Assembly: GCF_003018255.1 (NCBI RefSeq)
Contig: NZ_CP027440.1
Length of the DNA stretch: 64,000 nt
Source: Escherichia coli
GTDB taxonomy: Bacteria > Pseudomonadota > Gammaproteobacteria > Enterobacterales > Enterobacteriaceae
Reading direction: 5' to 3' (one strand)
Shown: positions 37,075 to 53,377 of the stretch, in pieces
How positions within the stretch are numbered: the stretch's first letter is position 1
Layout: the number at the start of each line of letters is the position of its first letter
Notes under the pieces: generated by a model
Database searches by the model: none
Told to the model about the DNA's origin: nothing
Seen by the model: the letters and a program-made list of their open reading frames with translations, nothing else
Translations under genes and position numbers: made by a program

Positions 37075-38853
37075 TTATGTGTTTAACAACTCATATTTCT
37101 TAATCTTGCGATAGAGCGTAGCAATGCCGATGCCCAGTTCATCAGCAACTTCCTTCTTGCTGTTATGACGTGAAAGCGCCTCGCGGATCATTTGCTTTTC
37201 CATCTCCTCCAGCGCCGTGCCGCCCGCATCATCGAGTGCCAGGTGCGCCTCACTGACCTCTGTTACATCACTTTGCTCCGTTGTGCCATTATTCAGCAGA
37301 TTTGGCGGCAATAGCGTGCTGTCGATAACTTCACCTGAAGGAACCACGTTAACCAGATATTCCATCAAATTGCTTAACTCGCGCAGGTTTCCGGGCCAAC
37401 GATGCTTACGCAATATTTCGACGACATCGGGAGCAATGCCCGGATAAACCGATCCCAGACGACGGGTATGCAGATGTAAAAAGTAATGCACCAGTAGTTC
37501 AATATCTTCCTGACGTTCACGCAGCGGTGGCAGAGTTATCGGGATAACATTAAGTCGGTAGAAGAGATCTTCGCGGAATTTACCTTCGGAAATGAACTGG
37601 GCCAAATTCTGGTTAGTTGCAGAAATGATGCGAATGTCGACTTGTATTGGGCTACTGGCACCAATCGGCAGAATTTCACGTGCCTCAATAGCGCGCAGTA
37701 ATTTAGCCTGCAACATTAATGGCATATCACCTATTTCATCGAGAAACAGCGTGCCCGTATTCGCCGCCTGAATCAACCCTGTTTTACCGTTGGCAGAAGC
37801 GCCAGTAAATGCGCCTTTAACATAACCGAACAGTTCGCTCTCCAGAAGCTGCTCCGGAATCGCGGCACAGTTGATAGCAATAAAAGGTTTATTCCGTCTT
37901 CCGCTCAACTTATGGATTGCACGGGCGACGACTTCTTTACCCGTGCCGCTTTCGCCAACCACCATAACGCTGGATGGGCTGGGTGCAATACGGCTAATGA
38001 GTCGTTTTAATTGCCGCATAACACGGCACTCGCCAACCAATTGTTCAATATGCGGTTCATCAGGTGCATTTGCTACAGAAAAACTGGTATGCGATTGGTG
38101 AAACGCCATTAAAAATAATTGTCGGCCCTGAATGTTATGCAATTGACCAATGATTAATTCACTTTTATCGTCCCACGAAACAATATGCTGCATATGTCCA
38201 TGGGTAAAATTACTCTCAAATGTTAATGGTCTGAAACGAACAGGTTTCCCAATAATATTATTTTGCACAACACCGAGTGTTTTTAAGGCAGTCTGATTAA
38301 CAAACTGAACCCGATTTTCGTCATCAACAACTAAAACGCCCTGATCCATATTATCGATCATGGTCGCGAATATTTTACTGATGTTATCTCCTGGCCCCTG
38401 ATCCTCCAGAAGTTTCGAAACAAAAATGGTGGATATATGGCGAACGTAATCAGAAAATTCGCGTAAATTATCACTGATATGTTCTTGTTGCTCGTGGGTA
38501 ACGGCAATCAAACTTATCACCCCAACACAACGATCCTGTAAAATGACAGGCGTACCCAGAAATGCTTTTTCGCGGCAATTTTCTTTACTATCGCAACCTT
38601 CACAAAGGGGATCGAAGCGAGACTGTGTCACAACTTTTTCAGTTTTCGTTTCCAGGACGTGGCGGAGCAGGCGTGAGTTGCCGCTCAACTGGCGACCAAG
38701 AAACTTCCCATACGCGCCCGTTCCGGCGACGCGACACAAGTTTTCATCAACGATCTCAACCTCAAGCTGCAAAACGCTGGCAAGCATTCTGGCAAAACGC
38801 TGAATTGTCGGTTGAATTTGCATCAATACTGACTGCGTAGTAGCAAGCTCCAT
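37075..38853 (-). CDS. ygeV: Sigma-54-dependent transcriptional activator (bacterial enhancer-binding protein)
   Basis: 592 aa; AAA+ Walker A GESGTGKE, the sigma-54 contact motif GAFTGA, C-terminal HTH, N-terminal sensory domain. Confidence 0.92.
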   Translation of the reverse strand: MELATTQSVLMQIQPTIQRFARMLASVLQLEVEIVDENLCRVAGTGAYGKFLGRQLSGNSRLLRHVLETKTEKVVTQSRFDPLCEGCDSKENCREKAFLGTPVILQDRCVGVISLIAVTHEQQEHISDNLREFSDYVRHISTIFVSKLLEDQGPGDNISKIFATMIDNMDQGVLVVDDENRVQFVNQTALKTLGVVQNNIIGKPVRFRPLTFESNFTHGHMQHIVSWDDKSELIIGQLHNIQGRQLFLMAFHQSHTSFSVANAPDEPHIEQLVGECRVMRQLKRLISRIAPSPSSVMVVGESGTGKEVVARAIHKLSGRRNKPFIAINCAAIPEQLLESELFGYVKGAFTGASANGKTGLIQAANTGTLFLDEIGDMPLMLQAKLLRAIEAREILPIGASSPIQVDIRIISATNQNLAQFISEGKFREDLFYRLNVIPITLPPLRERQEDIELLVHYFLHLHTRRLGSVYPGIAPDVVEILRKHRWPGNLRELSNLMEYLVNVVPSGEVIDSTLLPPNLLNNGTTEQSDVTEVSEAHLALDDAGGTALEEMEKQMIREALSRHNSKKEVADELGIGIATLYRKIKKYELLNT

Positions 38854-39222
38854 AGCTTTACCTTCCAGACTTACTTAAAAGTCGATCATTGAAGACGTTG
38901 ATGGTTCATAGATCATGATGATATTAACTCAGGCGAAATTGGCTTTGATAAAAACATAAGATTTTTATCACTTTCTAATGAAATTATGGAAGAGATATCA
39001 CATTTCTATATCAATATGAGAATTACGGCGGTGAGTTTATCAAACTGAAGAGAGATCGCCTGTCCCTTTATCTTATTTCTGATACTTAGCAGCAAATAAA
39101 TAACGCGATAAAAAAAGCCAAACGTTTTCGTATTTTACAAACAACCAGAAGCTGGCATCAATTTGTGATCAACCCCACACATTATCCGTCAAATTAGTCT
39201 TTTGCAGCCCCGTGGATAATTC

Positions 39223-45502: not shown

Positions 45503-47126
45503 AAGCCACTTCCAGCACTTCTTTCGTCGCTTTAACGCCCTGATGCATCAACATCATTAACGCCTCAAGTACGCCGCCGCCAATCGCCCGGGCTTTATCA
45601 GAAACGCTGGTGAAATCAGCCGTTTCACCACGAGGATCGATATCACCAATTTTAAAACCACCGACCACTGCCAGTCCGTCGTTCAACAAGCCACGCACCA
45701 TCCCCGTCAACGGTGCTTTAATTTCATGCTCACCAATCCAGGCAATCACATCGCCCTCTTTCACCAGATCGCCTAATTTCACGTTGGATCGCATAATGCC
45801 TGCAGCAGGAGCACGGATCACCCGTCGGGTGGTATGCCCCATAATATTGCCAGGAACACCGGTATTCTCCTGCGCACAACCAGAGTAAATCACCTGACCG
45901 AGCCAGTGCCCGCGATTTGTTTCAATTACCGCATGACAATCCTTCCCTGCAGTAAAGCCCGGCCCAAGCGCGATTGTTACTGGTGCCATATCTGCCCGCG
46001 TCCCCAAATTCTGTTTCGCCAGAATAGCGTCCACCACGCAAAGCGGTTTCAGTTCATCAAGCAATGAACAGGCGGGATCTACTATCACAGGGATGAATCC
46101 GCATTCGGTAAGTTTCATCGCCTCCGCAGAGCTGGTTGCCAGGCGGGCGGTGACGCCTTCGACCGTCATTTCGCCATCGAACACGGCCTGGGCAAATGCC
46201 ACGGTACAACGAATCACTGTCGGTTTTTCCACTTCCAGCATGATCACTTTAAAACCCGCATGATACAGACGTAGCGCTACACCACTGGCGATATCCCCCG
46301 CACCACGAATCACCACCAGCTGGTGTCCGGAAGGATGAGAAGGCTTCATCATCAGCCCACCCGGCGCGTTATTTTTCACCTGTAATATTTCTGCCAGCAC
46401 GCTGATGGCGATCTCCTGCGGCGTTTCCGCACCTATGTTGTAACCAACGGGCGCATGTAAACGGGCAATATGTTCTTCAGCCACGCCTTTCTCACGCAAT
46501 TGGCGCAGGAAAAGCTGAACCTTGCGGCGACTTGCCAGCAACCCCAGCCATGCAATGGGTTGTTCAATGAGTTTGTCGAGGGCTTCACGATCCTGATTAT
46601 TCGTGGCAATCAGGACAAAATTATCAGGGCGAATATCCAGTGCTTCCACTGCCGCACCAAACGACTCAGCATGGAGAAGCGTGGTTGATGGTGGGAATAG
46701 TTCAGGATTGAGGCTTTCGCGATAAATATCGGCAACGGCGATATCAAATCCTAATAGCGCCGCACTCTGGGCTATCGCCCGGTTGACATGCCCCGCGCCA
46801 ATCAACACCAGACGTGGACGCATACCATGGACGCTGATAAATACTGACATTGCACCTCCACAATCTGACCCGACAGCATCCGCACCGTTACGAGCCATAC
46901 GTCCATGGAATAATCGCGGCTTACGTTCCTGCAATGCCTGAAGCGACTCTTCAATCACCTTCCGCTCAACCATTCCGCCACCAATTGTACCGACGATAGA
47001 GCCATCGGCGCGCACTAACATTTGTGCAGAATGGCGGGGGGTTGAGCCTCGGCTATCAACAATTTGCGCCATCGCAAACGGACAATTTTGCTCTTCGAGT
47101 TTTGCAGCCTCTGTGAAAATATTCAT
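45501..47126 (-). CDS. yqeB: YqeB-family accessory protein of selenium-dependent molybdenum hydroxylases (XdhC/CoxI-like)
   Basis: 541 aa with XdhC/CoxI-like and Rossmann-like regions (LIGAGHV). Confidence 0.85.
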   Translation of the reverse strand: MNIFTEAAKLEEQNCPFAMAQIVDSRGSTPRHSAQMLVRADGSIVGTIGGGMVERKVIEESLQALQERKPRLFHGRMARNGADAVGSDCGGAMSVFISVHGMRPRLVLIGAGHVNRAIAQSAALLGFDIAVADIYRESLNPELFPPSTTLLHAESFGAAVEALDIRPDNFVLIATNNQDREALDKLIEQPIAWLGLLASRRKVQLFLRQLREKGVAEEHIARLHAPVGYNIGAETPQEIAISVLAEILQVKNNAPGGLMMKPSHPSGHQLVVIRGAGDIASGVALRLYHAGFKVIMLEVEKPTVIRCTVAFAQAVFDGEMTVEGVTARLATSSAEAMKLTECGFIPVIVDPACSLLDELKPLCVVDAILAKQNLGTRADMAPVTIALGPGFTAGKDCHAVIETNRGHWLGQVIYSGCAQENTGVPGNIMGHTTRRVIRAPAAGIMRSNVKLGDLVKEGDVIAWIGEHEIKAPLTGMVRGLLNDGLAVVGGFKIGDIDPRGETADFTSVSDKARAIGGGVLEALMMLMHQGVKATKEVLEVA

Positions 47127-47173
47127 ACCAACCTCAATGGATATCCTTTCAGTAACCCGGAATACCCGGGCCG

Positions 47174-47944
47174 CTAATTCACAAATCTGCGCGCGATTGC
47201 AGGATGTTCTTGTATATCGCCCAGCCAGATTGCCTCTACGTCGTGTTGTTGCAGCGGTTGAAGGAGCTCGCTTTGCGCAATCGCATTCTCACATTGAGAA
47301 AAACGGTTAATGAACCAGACTCGCCGACAACCTTGCGGTACGTTTTTAAACGCCCCCTGAGGGTGGCGAACCAGCGCAACGAGATCGCTCAGTTGCAAGG
47401 TTGCATCAGGTGTTAACCCGGTAATATCAGCAAACTGCGACCAGCGATGGACATTTTCTGTGCTCACTTTCGCACCCAAAATATGTCCTCCCATCACAGC
47501 AATCACGCAGCAACTGCTTTTAGGTATGCAAGGTTCGTGCTCATCAGGCGCTTTTAACGGCATTCCACGCGAGCCATCTGCCTCAATGAGAATTACGTCA
47601 CACTCTGATCGTTGTACCAGTGCATCAATCGCTTCTGGCGTAAATCCCTGCACTTTTCCCTGGTTCGCTTTCCAGCTGTGAAAACAAAATGAAATGGGGG
47701 ATATAAAAGACGCATGAGGAAGCATGGCGGGATCACGACAGAAAACCACGGGCCAGTGAGATGTTGGCATAAACATATGTGTCGTCGTAGTGATTAATAC
47801 ACGCCTGCCGCTCGCCTGGAACAGTTCTGCCAGCCAAAAAAGCAAGCTGGTTTTCCCCCCAGCACCAACAACAGAAATCACAGTGGGACGTTTCTGCGCG
47901 CCTAAATCAATGAATAATGCCGATGGGTCAATTATACTTTTCAC
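47174..47944 (-). CDS. yqeC: YqeC-family accessory protein with P-loop-like motif
   Basis: 256 aa; motif VVGAGGKTS near the N-terminus; directly downstream of yqeB. Confidence 0.85.
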   Translation of the reverse strand: MKSIIDPSALFIDLGAQKRPTVISVVGAGGKTSLLFWLAELFQASGRRVLITTTTHMFMPTSHWPVVFCRDPAMLPHASFISPISFCFHSWKANQGKVQGFTPEAIDALVQRSECDVILIEADGSRGMPLKAPDEHEPCIPKSSCCVIAVMGGHILGAKVSTENVHRWSQFADITGLTPDATLQLSDLVALVRHPQGAFKNVPQGCRRVWFINRFSQCENAIAQSELLQPLQQHDVEAIWLGDIQEHPAIARRFVN

Positions 47945-48047: not shown

Positions 48048-48626
48048 ATGTCAGCCATCGACTGTATAATTACCGCCGCAGGATTATCATCAAGAATGGG
48101 GCAATGGAAAATGATGTTACCCTGGCAACAGGGAACAATTCTTGATACAAGTATCAAAAATGCGTTGCAGTTTTGTAGCCGAATTATTTTAGTCACCGGC
48201 TATCGTGGTAATGAACTGCACGAACGTTATGCGAACCAGAGCAATATCACTATTATCCACAACCCAGATTATGCGCAGGGTTTACTGACATCAGTAAAGG
48301 CCGCAGTACCCGCGGTGCAAACAGAACATTGTTTTCTCACCCACGGAGATATGCCAACCCTCACCATCGATATTTTTAGAAAAATCTGGTCGTTACGAAA
48401 TGATGGCGCAATACTGCCACTCCATAATGGCATCCCCGGCCATCCGATTTTAGTGTCAAAACCATGCCTGATGCAGGCAATCCAGCGACCCAATGTCACC
48501 AATATGCGTCAGGCACTCCTTATGGGAGAACATTATTCCGTCGAAATAGAAAATGCAGAAATAATTTTAGATATTGATACTCCTGACGACTTTATTACAG
48601 CGAAGAAAAGGTATACTGAAATTTAG
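48048..48626 (+). CDS. ygfJ: Molybdenum cofactor cytidylyltransferase (MobA-like)
   Basis: 192 aa; nucleotidyltransferase N-terminus IDCIITAAGLSSRMG. Confidence 0.88.
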   Translation: MSAIDCIITAAGLSSRMGQWKMMLPWQQGTILDTSIKNALQFCSRIILVTGYRGNELHERYANQSNITIIHNPDYAQGLLTSVKAAVPAVQTEHCFLTHGDMPTLTIDIFRKIWSLRNDGAILPLHNGIPGHPILVSKPCLMQAIQRPNVTNMRQALLMGEHYSVEIENAEIILDIDTPDDFITAKKRYTEI

Positions 48627-48780
48627 AAAACGTAGTTAAACGATTGCGTTCAAATATTTAATCCCTCCAGCACTCTTTATCATAATGATAAGGAATCACT
48701 GATTTTGAGAAAAGAGAAAAAGTGATAAATGGGCTGGCAATAATAATTTTCAGGAGTGATTTTAATTCTCATTTGGCACC

Positions 48781-48796
48781 TGTGAGTTCATTCACA
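48781..48796 (+). promoter_or_regulatory. Candidate CRP binding site upstream of ygfK
   Basis: TGTGAgttcatTCACA, both CRP half-sites with 6-bp spacer, about 150 bp upstream of ygfK. Confidence 0.45.
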
Positions 48797-48850
48797 AAAA
48801 GCCATTAAGTTTCGAGCCGCCTCACATTTTTTTATATTTCCCGCCAAACC

Positions 48851-48866
48851 TGGCAAGAGTGGTGCG
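48851..48866 (+). promoter_or_regulatory. Candidate sigma-54 promoter upstream of ygfK
   Basis: TGGCAA-GAGTG-GTGCG with GG-N10-GC spacing, about 83 bp upstream of ygfK. Confidence 0.35.
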
Positions 48867-48947
48867 ATTGTTGCTCTATCCCCCTAAACCACCGGATTTC
48901 TCAACACCGGTCACTCAATGATATCTGTATAAGCTAAGGAGAGGGTT

Positions 48948-51900
48948 ATGGGGGATATTATGCGTCCCATTCCGTTTGAGGAACTTTTGACGCGCATATT
49001 TGATGAATACCAACAACAACGCTCAATCTTTGGTATTCCCGAGCAACAGTTTTACTCACCCGTAAAAGGTAAAACTGTTAGCGTCTTCGGTGAAACCTGT
49101 GCCACTCCCGTCGGCCCTGCCGCTGGCCCGCACACGCAGCTCGCGCAAAATATTGTCACTTCCTGGCTGACTGGCGGACGCTTCATCGAACTAAAAACCG
49201 TCCAAATTCTTGACCGCCTGGAGCTGGAAAAGCCCTGTATCGATGCCGAAGACGAGTGCTTTAACACCGAATGGTCTACCGAATTTACCCTGCTTAAAGC
49301 CTGGGATGAATACCTCAAAGCCTGGTTTGCCCTGCACCTTCTCGAAGCGATGTTCCAGCCTTCTGATTCCTGTAAATCGTTCATCTTTAATATGAGCGTC
49401 GGTTACAACCTCGAAGGTATTAAGCAACCGCCGATGCAGCAGTTCATCGACAATATGATGGACGCATCTGACCATCCGAAATTCGCTCAATACCGCGATG
49501 CACTTAATAAGCTACTCCAGGATGACGCATTTTTAGCCCGCCACGGCTTACAGGAAAAACGCGAAAGCTTGCAAGCCTTACCCGCTCGCATCCCCACCAG
49601 CATGGTACAAGGGGTTACCCTCTCCACCATGCACGGCTGTCCTCCGCATGAAATCGAAGCCATTTGCCGCTACATGCTGGAAGAAAAAGGGCTCAACACC
49701 TTTGTGAAACTCAACCCGACCTTACTGGGGTACGCGCGTGTTCGTGAGATCCTCGATGTCTGCGGTTTCGGTTACATCGGCTTAAAAGAAGAGTCATTTG
49801 ATCACGACCTCAAGCTGACGCAAGCACTGGAAATGCTGGAACGCCTGATGGCACTGGCAAAAGAAAAATCACTCGGCTTTGGCGTAAAACTGACTAACAC
49901 TCTCGGCACCATTAATAACAAAGGCGCACTGCCCGGTGAAGAGATGTATATGTCAGGCCGTGCGCTGTTCCCGCTCTCCATCAACGTTGCAGCAGTTCTC
50001 TCTCGCGCCTTTGACGGCAAACTGCCCATTTCTTATTCCGGTGGTGCCAGTCAGCTGACTATCCGCGATATTTTTGATACTGGTATTCGCCCTATTACTA
50101 TGGCAACCGACCTGCTGAAACCTGGCGGCTATCTGCGCTTAAGTGCCTGCATGCGCGAGCTGGAAGGCTCAGATGCCTGGGAGCTTAACCACGTTGACGT
50201 CGAACGACTGAACAGACTGGCAGCAGACGCGTTAACCATGGAATACACCCAGAAACACTGGAAGCCAGAAGAGCGTATTGAAGTGGCTGAAGACCTGCCG
50301 CTGACCGATTGCTACGTTGCCCCCTGTGTTACTGCCTGCGCTATCAAGCAAGATATTCCGGAATACATCCGTCTGCTTGGCGAACACCGCTATGCCGACG
50401 CGCTGGAACTCATCTATCAACGCAACGCCCTGCCCGCCATTACCGGTCATATTTGCGATCACCAGTGCCAATACAACTGTACCCGCCTGGATTACGACAG
50501 TGCGCTGAATATCCGCGAACTGAAAAAAGTCGCGCTGGAAAAAGGTTGGGATGAATATAAGCAACGCTGGCACAAACCAGCCGGTTCTGGTTCACGCCAT
50601 CCGGTTGCCGTGATTGGTGCAGGTCCGGCGGGTCTGGCAGCAGGTTACTTCCTTGCCAGAGCGGGCCATCCGGTTACGCTGTTTGAACGCGAAGCCAATG
50701 CGGGCGGCGTGGTGAAAAATATCATTCCTCAGTTCCGTATTCCTGCAGAGTTAATTCAGCACGATATCGATTTTGTTGCCGCTCACGGCGTAAAATTTGA
50801 GTATGGCTGCTCACCGGATCTGACCGTTGAACAGTTAAAAAATCAGGGCTTCCACTATGTTCTGATTGCCACCGGCACTGATAAAAATAGCGGTGTGAAA
50901 CTGGCGGGCGACAACCAAAATGTCTGGAAATCACTCCCCTTCCTGCGTGAATACAACAAGGGCACAGCGCTCAAGCTGGGCAAACATGTGGTCGTTGTCG
51001 GGGCGGGTAACACGGCAATGGACTGCGCTCGTGCGGCGTTACGCGTTCCAGGCGTAGAAAAAGCAACGGTCGTTTACCGTCGTTCACTGCAAGAGATGCC
51101 AGCATGGCGCGAAGAGTATGAAGAAGCGTTGCACGACGGCGTGGAGTTCCGTTTCCTGAATAATCCGGAACGTTTCGATGCTGATGGCACCTTAACCTTG
51201 CGCGTTATGTCGCTTGGCGAACCTGATGAGAAAGGTCGTCGCCGTCCGGTTGAAACCAACGAAACAGTAACACTGCATGTAGACAGCCTGATCACCGCCA
51301 TTGGTGAACAGCAGGATACTGAAGCCCTGAATGCGATGGGCGTGCCGCTGGACAAAAACGGCTGGCCAGACGTCGACCATAATGGCGAAACGCGTCTGAG
51401 TGACGTCTTTATGATCGGCGACGTACAGCGCGGACCATCCTCCATTGTCGCTGCTGTCGGAACCGCGCGTCGGGCGACCGATGCCATCCTGAGTCGGGAA
51501 AATATCCGTTCCCACCAGAACGATAAATACTGGAATAACGTCAATCCGGCGGAAATCTATCAACGTAAAGGCGATATCTCTGTCACTCTGGTGAACAGTG
51601 ACGATCGTGACGCGTTTGTCGCGCAGGAAGCCGCTCGCTGCCTTGAATGTAACTACGTTTGCAGCAAGTGTGTGGATGTCTGCCCGAACCGCGCCAACGT
51701 ATCCATTGCGGTCCCAGGCTTCCAGAACCGTTTCCAGACGCTGCATCTCGACGCCTACTGCAACGAATGCGGCAACTGCGCCCAATTCTGCCCGTGGAAC
51801 GGTAAACCGTACAAAGACAAAATCACCGTCTTCAGCCTGTCGCAAGACTTTGATAACAGCAGCAACCCAGGCTTCCTTGTGGAAGATTGCCGGGTACGCG

Positions 51901-52046
51901 TACGTCTGAATAACCAAAGCTGGGTGTTAAACATCGACAGCGAAGGTCAGTTCAACAACGTACCACCGGAGCTGAACGATATGTGCCGCATCATTAGCCA
52001 TGTCCACCAGCATCATCATTATCTGCTGGGCCGTGTGGAGGTGTAA
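48948..52046 (+). CDS. ygfK: Large Fe-S flavoprotein oxidoreductase (glutamate-synthase-small-subunit / PreT-like)
   Basis: 1032 aa; dinucleotide-binding motif [21 protein letters not shown] and C-terminal 4Fe-4S motifs CLECNYVCSKCVDVCPN and CNECGNCAQFCPW. Confidence 0.9.
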   Translation: MGDIMRPIPFEELLTRIFDEYQQQRSIFGIPEQQFYSPVKGKTVSVFGETCATPVGPAAGPHTQLAQNIVTSWLTGGRFIELKTVQILDRLELEKPCIDAEDECFNTEWSTEFTLLKAWDEYLKAWFALHLLEAMFQPSDSCKSFIFNMSVGYNLEGIKQPPMQQFIDNMMDASDHPKFAQYRDALNKLLQDDAFLARHGLQEKRESLQALPARIPTSMVQGVTLSTMHGCPPHEIEAICRYMLEEKGLNTFVKLNPTLLGYARVREILDVCGFGYIGLKEESFDHDLKLTQALEMLERLMALAKEKSLGFGVKLTNTLGTINNKGALPGEEMYMSGRALFPLSINVAAVLSRAFDGKLPISYSGGASQLTIRDIFDTGIRPITMATDLLKPGGYLRLSACMRELEGSDAWELNHVDVERLNRLAADALTMEYTQKHWKPEERIEVAEDLPLTDCYVAPCVTACAIKQDIPEYIRLLGEHRYADALELIYQRNALPAITGHICDHQCQYNCTRLDYDSALNIRELKKVALEKGWDEYKQRWHKPAGSGSRHPVAVIGAGPAGLAAGYFLARAGHPVTLFEREANAGGVVKNIIPQFRIPAELIQHDIDFVAAHGVKFEYGCSPDLTVEQLKNQGFHYVLIATGTDKNSGVKLAGDNQNVWKSLPFLREYNKGTALKLGKHVVVVGAGNTAMDCARAALRVPGVEKATVVYRRSLQEMPAWREEYEEALHDGVEFRFLNNPERFDADGTLTLRVMSLGEPDEKGRRRPVETNETVTLHVDSLITAIGEQQDTEALNAMGVPLDKNGWPDVDHNGETRLSDVFMIGDVQRGPSSIVAAVGTARRATDAILSRENIRSHQNDKYWNNVNPAEIYQRKGDISVTLVNSDDRDAFVAQEAARCLECNYVCSKCVDVCPNRANVSIAVPGFQNRFQTLHLDAYCNECGNCAQFCPWNGKPYKDKITVFSLSQDFDNSSNPGFLVEDCRVRVRLNNQSWVLNIDSEGQFNNVPPELNDMCRIISHVHQHHHYLLGRVEV

Positions 52047-52048
52047 TC

Positions 52049-53377
52049 ATGTTGATTCTGAAGAATGTCACCGCAGTGCAGTTACACCCAGCGAAAGTGC
52101 AGGAAGGCGTTGATATCGCCATCGAAAATGATGTGATTGTCGCTATCGGCGATGCCCTGACGCAACGCTACCCCGATGCCAGCTACAAAGAGATGCATGG
52201 TCGGATTGTGATGCCAGGAATTGTCTGCTCGCACAACCATTTTTACTCGGGGCTGTCCCGCGGAATTATGGCAAACATCGCCCCCTGCCCGGATTTCATC
52301 TCAACGCTGAAAAATCTCTGGTGGCGACTCGATCGCGCCCTTGATGAAGAGTCGCTCTATTACAGCGGACTGATTTGTTCCCTGGAAGCGATTAAGGGCG
52401 GATGTACATCGGTTATCGATCACCATGCCTCTCCGGCGTATATCGACGGGTCGCTCTCCACATTGCGCAACGCATTTTTAAAAGTTGGCCTGCGCGCGAT
52501 GACCTGTTTTGAAACTACTGACCGTAACAACGGTATCAAAGAGTTGCAGGAAGGTGTAGAAGAAAACATCCGCTTCGCCCGTCAGATTGATGATGCGAAG
52601 AAAGCGGCAACTGAACCGTATCTGGTAGAGGCTCATATTGGTGCTCACGCGCCGTTTACTGTGCCGGATGCCGGTCTGGAAATGCTGCGTGAGGCCGTGA
52701 AAGCCACAGGCCGTGGTTTACATATTCACGCTGCGGAAGACCTTTACGATGTTTCCCATAGTCATCACTGGTACGGCAAAGATCTGCTGGCACGATTAGC
52801 GCAATTCGATCTCATCGACAGCAAAACGCTGGTCGCTCATGGGCTTTATCTGTCTAAAGACGACATCGCGTTGCTCAATCAGCGTGATGCATTCCTGGTG
52901 CATAACGCCCGTTCAAACATGAACAACCATGTCGGCTACAACCATCATCTTTGCGACATCCGCAATCTGGCGTTGGGTACGGACGGTATTGGTTCAGATA
53001 TGTTTGAAGAGATGAAATTTGCCTTCTTTAAACATCGCGATGCGGGTGGTCCGCTGTGGCCTGACAGCTTTGCCAAAGCTCTGGCTAACGGCAACGAACT
53101 GATGAGCCGCAACTTTGGCGCGAAATTTGGCCTTCTGGAAGCCGGTTACAAAGCCGATTTAACCATTTGCGATTACAACTCGCCGACGCCGCTGCTGGCA
53201 GACAATATCGCCGGGCATATCGCTTTCGGTATGGGCTCAGGCAGCGTTCACAGCGTGATGGTCAATGGTGTGATGGTCTATGAAGACCGTCAGTTTAACT
53301 TCGATTGCGATTCCATTTATGCGCAAGCCAGAAAAGCCGCTGCCAGTATGTGGCGTCGGATGGATGCGCTGGCATAA
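52049..53377 (+). CDS. ssnA: Amidohydrolase (chlorohydrolase/deaminase-like)
   Basis: 442 aa; metal-binding motif PGIVCSHNHF; starts 2 nt after the ygfK stop. Confidence 0.9.
   Translation: MLILKNVTAVQLHPAKVQEGVDIAIENDVIVAIGDALTQRYPDASYKEMHGRIVMPGIVCSHNHFYSGLSRGIMANIAPCPDFISTLKNLWWRLDRALDEESLYYSGLICSLEAIKGGCTSVIDHHASPAYIDGSLSTLRNAFLKVGLRAMTCFETTDRNNGIKELQEGVEENIRFARQIDDAKKAATEPYLVEAHIGAHAPFTVPDAGLEMLREAVKATGRGLHIHAAEDLYDVSHSHHWYGKDLLARLAQFDLIDSKTLVAHGLYLSKDDIALLNQRDAFLVHNARSNMNNHVGYNHHLCDIRNLALGTDGIGSDMFEEMKFAFFKHRDAGGPLWPDSFAKALANGNELMSRNFGAKFGLLEAGYKADLTICDYNSPTPLLADNIAGHIAFGMGSGSVHSVMVNGVMVYEDRQFNFDCDSIYAQARKAAASMWRRMDALA

What the first reader, a model, noticed from the sequence alone, without database searches (positions are those of the whole stretch)
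48781..48866. CRP site and sigma-54 candidate in tandem upstream of ygfK
TGTGA-N6-TCACA at 48781-48796 lies about 55 bp upstream of a GG-N10-GC element (TGGCAA-GAGTG-GTGCG, 48851-48866). Together they suggest that catabolite control and RpoN/YgeV control both act on the ygfK operon.
Basis: seen in the sequence. Interest (0 to 1): 0.48.

Follow-up and report, generated by a model that had tools for sequence, protein, structure and literature searches.

The report
CRP sites upstream of ygfK sigma-54 promoter

Summary
The window is E. coli. The finding lies in the mocA-ygfK spacer, upstream of ygfK-ssnA-ygfM-xdhD (reductive urate degradation).

- **CRP core:** TGTGAGTTCATTCACA is exactly at 48781-48796. 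It is the only perfect core in 64 kb (0.04 expected). Shimada 2011 already lists this 16-mer as a CRP genomic-SELEX site; this spacer was their third most cloned CRP fragment.
it exists at 48851-48866 but is the wrong register. The ChIP-seq-assigned motif is GTGGTGCGATTGTTGCT at 48859-48875 (GG 48861-2, GC 48873-4; predicted start 48886).
- **Register test:** the published register scores higher (12.75 vs 9.66 bits).

New here: the strong CRP core sits at a fixed -97.5/-98.5 in 35 loci. It is always exactly 30 bp from a second conserved CRP-like box (48811-48826, -67.5). There is no IHF-like site, and three further conserved blocks (candidate YgeV enhancer) lie upstream.

Dual cAMP-CRP and sigma-54/YgeV control is plausible but untested for ygfK. 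The direction of the CRP effect is inferred. Already known in its parts; modest interest.

The parts
48781..48796 (.). CRP site 1: perfect core TGTGAGTTCATTCACA, centre -97.5 from the predicted transcription start
   Evidence: Exact 16-mer listed as a CRP SELEX site in PMC3105977 Table S3. 0-1 core mismatches at the fixed offset in 36 of 80 orthologous loci, against 0.5% of control offsets reaching 2 or fewer. Pentamers 86-91% conserved, spacer 62%.
48811..48826 (.). CRP-like site 2: TTCGAGCCGCCTCACA (8 of 10 core positions), centre -67.5, exactly 30 bp from site 1
   Evidence: Its reverse complement TGTGAGGCGGCTCGAA is listed as a second CRP box in PMC3105977 Table S3. The form TTnGA-N6-TCAC(A/G) is kept in 64 of 80 loci, including Aeromonas. 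The spacing to the strong site is 30 bp in 37 of 37 cases.
48859..48875 (+). Sigma-54 core promoter GTGGTGCGATTGTTGCT (-24 GG at 48861-2, -12 GC at 48873-4)
   Evidence: ChIP-seq motif OS31, fold-above-threshold 26, 62 nt from ygfK. Matrix score 12.75 bits. Homolog present in 79 of 80 loci. 92% column conservation in 48 Enterobacterales.
48851..48866 (+).
   Evidence: 9.66 bits. GG-N10-GC kept in 4 of 80 loci, median score -15.4 bits. TGGCA becomes TGGTA in E. whittamii.
48886..48886 (+). Predicted transcription start (19 bp after the motif centre), giving a 62-nt leader; not mapped experimentally
   Evidence: Convention of PMC4591121. It reproduces their distances for xdhA (84), ygeW (80) and ygfK (62) on the window sequence.
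48677..48691 (.). Conserved block A: palindrome TTATCATAATGATAA, centre -202; candidate YgeV enhancer site (inferred)
   Evidence: 85% column conservation. Similar boxes (2 or fewer mismatches) number 12 in the window against 2.2 expected, and they occur upstream of the xdhA and ygeW sigma-54 promoters.
48702..48712 (.). Conserved block B: ATTTTGAGAAA, centre -179; unassigned, possibly part of the enhancer
   Evidence: 88% column conservation in 48 Enterobacterales.
48754..48772 (.). Conserved block C: GAGTGATTTTAATTCTCAT, centre about -123; TTCTCA here is the inverse of TGAGAA in block B
   Evidence: 89% column conservation. Invariant in 10 Escherichia alleles.
48948..52046 (+). ygfK coding sequence, first gene of ygfK-ssnA-ygfM-xdhD
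37075..38853 (-). ygeV, the sigma-54 enhancer-binding protein gene of the cluster (coordinates transferred from L001)
   Evidence: RefSeq product 'sigma-54 interaction domain-containing protein'. Offset L001 to window = +28559.

Best explanation
The mocA-ygfK spacer is the control region of an enhancer-dependent sigma-54 promoter for ygfK-ssnA-ygfM-xdhD.

Shown or published: RNA polymerase with sigma-54 occupies TGGTGC-N5-TTGCT (48860-48875). cAMP-CRP binds this spacer in vitro. The consensus CRP core at -97.5 is strongly conserved at a fixed position, and a weaker CRP-like box lies at -67.5, always 30 bp away.

Inferred: the enhancer protein YgeV binds the conserved blocks further upstream (-209 to -113). 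The two CRP-bound bends, roughly in phase, sit where sigma-54 promoters usually carry an IHF site; none is found here. They fold the enhancer back onto the closed complex. Transcription would then need both the YgeV signal and high cAMP (no glucose). CRP is therefore proposed as an architectural co-activator.
For: - Identity of the locus.
- CRP core: unique and perfect. In vitro binding of this spacer (9 SELEX clones, third most frequent) with both boxes listed.
- Sigma-54: ChIP-seq peak and motif; matrix score; homolog in 79 of 80 species.
- Fixed geometry: cores with 1 or fewer mismatches are centred at -97.5 (24 loci), -98.5 (11) and -99.5 (1). In 4 Morganella morganii loci they are at -109.5/-110.5, with the whole two-box module moved by about one helical turn. 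In two further loci the strong core is the proximal box, at -67.5. Box-to-box spacing is 30 bp in 37 of 37.
- Selection pattern: pentamers are conserved while the N6 spacer varies freely. Polymorphisms among 10 Escherichia alleles avoid every block.
- No IHF-like site (1 or fewer mismatches to WATCAANNNNTTR) anywhere in the spacer. No sigma-70-like promoter on the + strand.
- Sister promoters of the same iModulon also carry SELEX-listed CRP boxes: ygeW at -77.5 and ygfT at -68.5.
- Direction: urate degradation is glucose-repressed, and the ygeV-ygeW Crp site was removed to bypass that repression.
- Precedent for CRP activation of a sigma-54 promoter: prpBCDE.
Against: - I found no in vivo data for ygfK in crp, cya, rpoN or ygeV mutants.
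- The transcription start is predicted, not mapped.
- Most studied cases show cAMP-CRP inhibiting sigma-54 promoters: glnAp2 (site at -51.5), glnHp2, dctA, Pu and nif promoters.
- In the engineered strain only the ygeV-ygeW spacer was replaced, yet glucose repression of urate degradation was lifted. CRP at ygfK may therefore not be strictly required, or altered YgeV levels may compensate.
- Box 2 keeps a non-consensus T at core position 2 in nearly all species, so it may serve a protein other than CRP.
- The strong CRP core is degenerate or absent in Aeromonas, the Klebsiella oxytoca group and some Enterobacter and Kluyvera, although the promoter is kept.
- The assignment of blocks A-C to YgeV rests on resemblance among three promoters in a single genome.
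Confidence: 0.55

Rival explanations
1. CRP bound at -97.5/-67.5 is an anti-activator. As at glnAp2, dctA and Pu, cAMP-CRP holds the sigma-54 closed complex (contact with the alpha subunit C-terminal domain, or an unfavourable bend) and lowers YgeV-dependent activation.
For: This is the published behaviour of CRP at most sigma-54 promoters examined (PMC3900584, PMC1865078). Replacing only the ygeW-side Crp site was enough to lift glucose repression of the pathway, so ygfK need not be CRP-activated.
Against: The pathway is repressed, not stimulated, by glucose. Those inhibitory cases mostly lack a strong CRP site, or have it close to the promoter (-51.5). Here a consensus site sits at a conserved distal position with no IHF site. 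prpBCDE shows activation is possible.
Confidence: 0.2
2. The CRP sites drive a separate, weak sigma-70 promoter for ygfK (class I type). This would run in parallel with the sigma-54 promoter, as at glnAp1/p2 or glnHp1/p2.
For: Tandem sigma-70/sigma-54 promoters with CRP acting on the sigma-70 one are documented. A TATATT hexamer lies at 48833-48838, downstream of both boxes.
Against: The consensus scan finds no sigma-70-like promoter on the + strand in 48500-49050. The TATATT region is not conserved between genera (51% column conservation). The spacing that is strictly conserved is to the sigma-54 motif.
Confidence: 0.1
3. The reader's register (GG 48852-3, GC 48864-5) is the functional sigma-54 promoter, or a second overlapping one.
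For: It has correct GG-N10-GC spacing and scores 9.66 bits, above the weakest ChIP-bound training site at 8.13 bits. ChIP-seq resolution cannot separate motifs 9 bp apart.
Against: Lower score than the overlapping motif. The published MEME assignment is the downstream register. The ChIP peak centre lies downstream of both, further from this one.
Confidence: 0.03
4. The palindrome, box 2, or both are recognised in vivo mainly by another protein (YgeV itself or another regulator), and CRP binding is only an in vitro property.
For: Box 2 has a conserved non-consensus form, TTnGA-N6-TCAC, that reaches further phylogenetically (Aeromonas) than the consensus box. The invariant 30-bp spacing suggests one composite complex. 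A weak TTTTA-N6-TCACA sits at the same -67.5 in the xdhA promoter.
Against: Site 1 is a perfect CRP consensus, recovered with purified CRP as one of the top SELEX clones. The candidate enhancer palindromes shared by the xdhA, ygeW and ygfK upstream regions have a different sequence, TTATCA-N3-TGATAA.
Confidence: 0.07

Closest known systems
prpBCDE promoter of E. coli/Salmonella (sigma-54, PrpR, IHF, activated by CRP)
   Same: A catabolic operon transcribed from a sigma-54 promoter with a cluster-encoded enhancer-binding protein. It is subject to catabolite repression through direct CRP action (PMC5566544 citing Lee 2005).
   Different: prpBCDE also needs IHF. The ygfK spacer has no IHF-like site and carries two CRP-type boxes 30 bp apart. 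CRP dependence is shown for prp and only inferred here.
glnAp2, glnHp2, dctA and Pu: sigma-54 promoters down-regulated by cAMP-CRP
   Same: CRP acts at a sigma-54 promoter between enhancer and core promoter. DNA bending and contact with the alpha subunit C-terminal domain decide the outcome.
   Different: There CRP inhibits. It is recruited to weak or no sites close to the promoter (-51.5 at glnAp2). Here there is a consensus, SELEX-bound, evolutionarily fixed site at -97.5, and the pathway is glucose-repressed.
IHF-assisted sigma-54 promoters (nifH, Pu)
   Same: A sharp protein-induced bend between upstream enhancer and -24/-12 promoter promotes looping (PMC2709558). The CRP boxes occupy that position.
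   Different: The bending protein would be a signal-responsive regulator (cAMP-CRP) instead of a nucleoid protein. No IHF consensus is present.
ygeW and ygfT promoters of the same cluster
   Same: Sigma-54 ChIP-seq sites with SELEX-listed CRP boxes upstream: ygeW TGTGATCAACCCCACA at -77.5 and ygfT TGCGACTGAGTTCAAA at -68.5. Same iModulon.
   Different: Each has a single, imperfect box at a different distance. ygfK has the only perfect core, plus a second box.
Class I CRP-dependent sigma-70 promoters (lac type)
   Same: The same CRP recognition sequence. By my recollection, the left half TGTGAGTT matches the lac site.
   Different: There is no sigma-70 -35/-10 at a class I or II distance. The conserved partner element is a -24/-12 promoter.

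Membership tests
CRP-binding site (cAMP-CRP regulon) | Two-fold symmetric core TGTGA-N6-TCACA | tested here: met
   10 of 10 core positions at 48781-96. Unique in the window, 0.04 expected.
CRP-binding site (cAMP-CRP regulon) | Binds purified cAMP-CRP | not testable with these tools
   Literature only. The ygfJ>ygfK spacer gave 9 SELEX clones (third most frequent), and this 16-mer is listed in PMC3105977 Tables S2 and S3.
CRP-binding site (cAMP-CRP regulon) | Purifying selection on the half-sites and on position in orthologous promoters | tested here: met
   0-1 mismatches in 36 of 80 loci at the fixed offset, against 0.5% of control offsets with 2 or fewer. Pentamers 86-91% conserved, spacer 62%.
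CRP-binding site (cAMP-CRP regulon) | crp/cAMP-dependent expression of the target gene in vivo | not testable with these tools
   No ygfK-specific data found. Pathway-level glucose repression only.
Sigma-54 (RpoN) promoter, published register 48859-75 | -24 GG and -12 GC separated by 10 bp, with a score within the range of bound sites | tested here: met
   12.75 bits; the training sites span 8.1-20.9 bits; rank 8 of 127,968 positions.
Sigma-54 (RpoN) promoter, published register 48859-75 | Occupied by sigma-54 in vivo | not testable with these tools
   Literature: ChIP-seq site OS31, fold-above-threshold 26; promoter marked 'predicted' in EcoCyc.
Sigma-54 (RpoN) promoter, published register 48859-75 | Motif conserved upstream of orthologous genes | tested here: met
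   79 of 80 loci score 8.13 bits or more, located 57-233 nt before the ATG.
Sigma-54 (RpoN) promoter, published register 48859-75 | Cognate enhancer-binding protein and upstream activating sites | tested here: inconclusive
   ygeV is encoded in the cluster and ygfK is in the YgeV iModulon. Conserved blocks A-C are candidate sites only.
   GG-N10-GC kept in 4 of 80 loci; median score -15.4 bits.
IHF-assisted sigma-54 promoter | IHF consensus WATCAANNNNTTR between enhancer and promoter | tested here: not met
   No match with 1 or fewer mismatches on either strand in 48627-48947.
Class I/II CRP-activated sigma-70 promoter | Sigma-70 -35/-10 hexamers placed so that CRP is centred near -41.5, -61.5, -72.5 and so on | tested here: not met
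   No + strand sigma-70-like site in 48500-49050. The candidate TATATT at 48833-38 is not conserved.

The most novel reading that the evidence does not exclude
In the YgeV regulon, cAMP-CRP has taken over the architectural role of IHF at sigma-54 promoters. At ygfK, a rigid two-box module (consensus box plus TTnGA-N6-TCAC box, always 30 bp apart, about 98 and 68 bp from the start) would make an in-phase double bend that gates enhancer-promoter contact. Catabolite control would then act on loop geometry rather than on polymerase recruitment.
Probability: 0.3. Interest if true: 0.55.

Novelty: already known. Interest (0 to 1): 0.33.

Why it matters
ygfK-ssnA-ygfM-xdhD encodes the first steps of the recently described reductive (2,8-dioxopurine) urate degradation pathway of gut bacteria. 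That pathway is being engineered into probiotics against hyperuricaemia, and glucose repression is a practical obstacle there. Knowing which bases carry the catabolite input and the sigma-54 input at the second operon of the pathway tells engineers what to replace.

For transcription biology, a natural sigma-54 promoter with a consensus CRP site at an evolutionarily fixed distal position and no IHF site would be a clean system. It could test whether CRP can act positively on enhancer-dependent promoters, and how. So far nearly all studied examples are inhibitory.

Tried and rejected
rejected on score, published assignment and conservation.
- **Sigma-70 promoter served by the CRP site:** the scan found none on the + strand. 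The only hit is a 9-of-12 site on the - strand that overlaps the CRP core, within chance expectation of 1.5.
- **IHF site between enhancer and promoter:** none found.
- **Structured RNA in the spacer or leader:** Rfam at E-value 1 or below found nothing in 48550-49050.
- **In vivo CRP or YgeV data on ygfK:** full-text searches found only genome-scale lists. The cap on papers stopped me reading two further candidates.
- **Deriving the YgeV box by comparing ygeW/xdhA/ygfT promoters across species:** Only within-window resemblance is available.
- **PurR-like box as part of the finding:** the 12-mer pattern is not enriched in the window (3 hits against 2.1 expected). I kept it only as a passing note.

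Full report
**Where we are.** The window is E. coli chromosome. A 451-bp query around the finding matches 5171 of 5426 complete E. coli genomes at 95-100% identity, under the annotations mocA and ygfK. The surrounding 40 kb is the purine/urate cluster xdhABC-ygeV-ygeW-dpaL-ygeY-hyuA-arcC(yqeA), yqeB/yqeC, mocA, ygfK-ssnA-ygfM-xdhD, xanQ-guaD-ghxQ, ygfS/ygfT, uacT. In the window, mocA ends at 48626 and ygfK starts at 48948. The finding therefore lies in a 321-bp spacer between two genes on the same strand.

**The CRP observation.** The sequence reads TGTGA (48781-85), GTTCAT, TCACA (48792-96). It is the only perfect TGTGA-N6-TCACA in 64 kb. Dinucleotide-preserving shuffles give 0.04 per window, and 4 of 100 shuffles contain one. 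Allowing one mismatch there are 6 sites against 1.7 expected. One of them is TGTGATCAACCCCACA, upstream of ygeW.

This site is not new. In the CRP genomic-SELEX study of Shimada et al. 2011, the ygfJ(mocA)>ygfK spacer was the third most frequently cloned CRP-bound fragment (9 clones). Their site table lists exactly TGTGAGTTCATTCACA at 3.01392 Mb. It also lists a second box, TGTGAGGCGGCTCGAA, at 3.01395 Mb (PMC3105977 supplement; ygfK appears among the predicted targets in the main text). MG1655 (U00096.2) coordinates equal window coordinates plus 2,965,134. The second box is therefore the reverse complement of window 48811-48826, TTCGAGCCGCCTCACA.

**The sigma-54 observation.** The loose pattern is not above chance, with 7 hits against 4.6 expected. 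The sigma-54 ChIP-seq study of Bonocora et al. 2015 reports a strong intergenic peak upstream of ygfK:
- Site OS31, fold-above-threshold 26.
- MEME motif GTGGTGCGATTGTTGCT, centred at 3,014,001 on the + strand.
- Predicted start 19 bp after the motif centre, 62 nt before ygfK.
- Promoter marked 'predicted' in EcoCyc.

That motif is window 48859-48875, with GG at 48861-2 and GC at 48873-4.

I built a log-odds matrix from the other 49 intergenic motifs of that paper, leaving ygfK out. The published register scores 12.75 bits (rank 8 of 127,968 positions in the window). The training sites span 8.1-20.9 bits.

**Conservation settles the register.** A scan of one genome per species with the first 300 residues of YgfK returned 80 loci. 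They cover Escherichia, Citrobacter, Klebsiella, Edwardsiella, Serratia, Morganella, Aeromonas, Photobacterium and a few beta-proteobacteria. In every locus, the best sigma-54 matrix hit in the 400 bp upstream of ygfK is the homolog of the published register. The consensus is cTGG(T/C)(G/C)(C/T)GATTGTTGCT, 57-233 nt before the ATG.
- Published register: 79 of 80 loci score at least 8.13 bits, the weakest training site.

In a MAFFT alignment of 48 Enterobacterales, the published 17-mer has 92% mean column conservation.

**Anatomy of the control region.** Positions are given relative to the predicted start at 48886. This convention reproduces the published distances for xdhA, ygeW and ygfK.

| Element | Window coordinates | Centre |
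|---|---|---|
| CRP site 1 | 48781-48796 | -97.5 |
| CRP-like site 2 | 48811-48826 | -67.5 |
| Core promoter | 48859-48875 | -27 to -11 |

The cross-species data show that this is a constrained module:
- At the expected offset (+/-2 bp), site 1 has 0-1 core mismatches in 36 of 80 loci. Control offsets in the same spacers reach 2 or fewer mismatches in 0.5% of cases.
- The pentamers are 86-91% conserved, while the N6 spacer varies freely (GTTCAT, GATCAT, GATATT, GCTATT, AGTGTT and others).
- Site 2 keeps the form TTnGA-N6-TCAC(A/G) in 64 of 80 loci. This includes Aeromonas, where site 1 is absent.
- Searching the whole -200 to -40 interval, cores with 1 or fewer mismatches are centred at -97.5 (24 loci), -98.5 (11) and -99.5 (1). 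In four Morganella morganii loci they lie at -109.5/-110.5, and box 2 moves with them. In two further loci the strong core is the proximal box, at -67.5.
- The spacing between the strong box and the TTnGA-N6-TCAC box is exactly 30 bp in 37 of 37 cases.
- Among ten Escherichia alleles, including three cryptic-clade or sister-species sequences, every polymorphism falls outside the CRP pentamers, the -24/-12 elements and the upstream blocks.

**What else is in the spacer.** Three further blocks are 85-89% conserved in Enterobacterales:
- Block A: a palindrome, TTATCATAATGATAA (48677-91, centre -202).
- Block B: ATTTTGAGAAA (48702-12).
- Block C: GAGTGATTTTAATTCTCAT (48754-72).

Boxes resembling block A (2 or fewer mismatches) number 12 in the window against 2.2 expected; no shuffle out of 100 reaches 12. 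They include sites upstream of the xdhA sigma-54 promoter (33169) and the ygeW promoter (39008, 39037). I take these blocks as candidate YgeV enhancer sites. This is inference only.

There is no IHF-like site (1 or fewer mismatches to WATCAANNNNTTR) on either strand of the spacer. There is no sigma-70-like promoter on the + strand, and no Rfam match.

**Sister promoters.** The other sigma-54 ChIP-seq sites of the cluster also have SELEX-listed CRP boxes:
- ygeW: TGTGATCAACCCCACA, centre -77.5.
- ygfT: TGCGACTGAGTTCAAA, centre -68.5.
- xdhA: only a weak TTTTA-N6-TCACA at -67.5.

CRP-type boxes 68-98 bp upstream of -24/-12 promoters are thus a recurring feature of this regulon.

**How it most likely works.** Published: sigma-54 holoenzyme occupies the ygfK promoter in cells growing in minimal medium, a condition in which sigma-54 is typically bound as transcriptionally inactive holoenzyme. 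ygfK was also among the genes responding to sigma-54 overexpression. ygfK-ssnA-ygfM-xdhD co-vary with xdhABC, ygeWXY-hyuA, ygfT and uacT in the 'YgeV' iModulon, and ygfT expression falls in a ygeV mutant. Urate degradation is repressed by glucose, and removing the Crp site of the ygeV-ygeW spacer was part of the design that lifted this repression.

Inferred: YgeV bound to the upstream blocks must loop to the closed complex. The two CRP-type boxes are 30 bp apart, close to three helical turns, and sit where an IHF site normally lies. When occupied by cAMP-CRP they would supply the bend. The operon would then fire only when both the YgeV signal and high cAMP are present. I put about 0.9 on the two elements being a real CRP site and a real sigma-54 promoter, and about 0.5-0.6 on CRP acting positively through architecture.

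**Why the direction is uncertain.** The best-studied cases go the other way. cAMP-CRP inhibits glnAp2 (recruited to -51.5), glnHp2, dctA, Pu and several nif promoters. It does so through contact with the alpha subunit C-terminal domain and an unfavourable bend (PMC3900584, PMC1865078). prpBCDE is the documented positive example. In the engineered strain, only the ygeV-ygeW spacer was changed, yet glucose repression of the whole pathway was relieved. This argues against an absolute CRP requirement at ygfK, unless altered YgeV levels compensate. Box 2 keeps a non-consensus T in nearly all species and is more widely conserved than box 1, so another protein may use it.

**Comparison with what is known, and novelty.** The CRP 16-mer was published in 2011.

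Three things appear not to have been described in the papers I could search:
- The fixed geometry: -97.5/-98.5, the invariant 30-bp two-box module, and its one-turn displacement in Morganella.
- The absence of an IHF site.
- The conserved upstream blocks.

These are extensions of a known kind of system, a CRP-modulated sigma-54 promoter, not a new kind. I rate the finding 'already known' with modest interest. It would gain interest if CRP proves to be a positive architectural factor, which would make this a natural counter-example to the prevailing inhibitory picture. It is also practically relevant for engineering urate-degrading gut bacteria.

**Limits.**
- The transcription start is predicted, not mapped.
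- All protein-binding statements rest on published in vitro SELEX and ChIP-seq, not on tests I could run.
- The YgeV box is a hypothesis from three promoters in one genome.
- The cap on papers prevented reading two possibly relevant papers.

Noticed in passing
window 48634-48649 (- strand reading ACGCAATCGTTTAACT); also 39120-39131 (- strand ACGAAAACGTTT) upstream of ygeW: Just after the mocA stop codon there is a conserved block whose core CGATTGCG is kept in Escherichia, Citrobacter, Edwardsiella, Serratia and Buttiauxella. From memory, it resembles the PurR/LacI-family operator ACGCAAWCGKTT. The only other near-matches in the window include one in the ygeV-ygeW spacer. The pattern is not enriched overall (3 hits against 2.1 expected). 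A purine-repressor input to these purine-catabolic promoters is possible but untested.
   Followed up: partly
window 48677-48691, 33169-33183, 39008-39022, 39037-39051: Palindromes of the form TTATCA-N3-TGATAA occur upstream of three sigma-54 promoters of the YgeV iModulon (ygfK, xdhA, ygeW). They are enriched in the window: 12 against 2.2 expected, and no shuffle out of 100 reaches 12. This is a candidate YgeV recognition sequence, which to my knowledge has not been defined.
   Followed up: partly
window 55926-55942 (+) and 52787-52803 (+): Good sigma-54 matrix hits lie inside genes in the sense orientation: CTGGCGGAACAATTGCA in xdhD (14.5 bits) and CTGGCACGATTAGCGCA in ssnA (13.5 bits). Both score higher than the ygfK promoter. 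Neither string appears in the main-text ChIP-seq tables of PMC4591121.
   Followed up: partly
L066, L067, L068, L073 (Morganella morganii) compared with L069 (M. psychrotolerans): In M. morganii the whole two-box CRP-type module lies 12-13 bp further from the sigma-54 promoter (centres about -109.5 and -79.5). Its internal 30-bp spacing is kept. In M. psychrotolerans it is at -99.5 and -69.5. This is a natural insertion of about one helical turn, consistent with a face-of-helix constraint.
   Followed up: yes
window 47112-47127 and 47286-47300: A one-mismatch CRP core, TGTGAAAATATTCATA, overlaps the start of yqeB. A block-A-like palindrome, TTCTCACATTGAGAA, lies inside yqeC. This hints that the divergently oriented yqeB/yqeC cofactor genes share the same regulators.
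   Followed up: no
L087 (E. coli FDAARGOS_1059) and L084 (E. coli 99-3165); E. coli genomes overall: ygfK is annotated as a pseudogene with an internal stop in one complete genome. In another genome, mocA is annotated as a shorter NTP-transferase-domain protein. The spacer is missing from about 255 of 5426 complete E. coli genomes.
   Followed up: no
window 48786-48759 (- strand): The only sigma-70-like hit in the spacer is CTCACA-16-TAAAAT on the minus strand. It overlaps the left half of the CRP core and points back toward mocA. It matches 9 of 12 positions and is within chance expectation.
   Followed up: no
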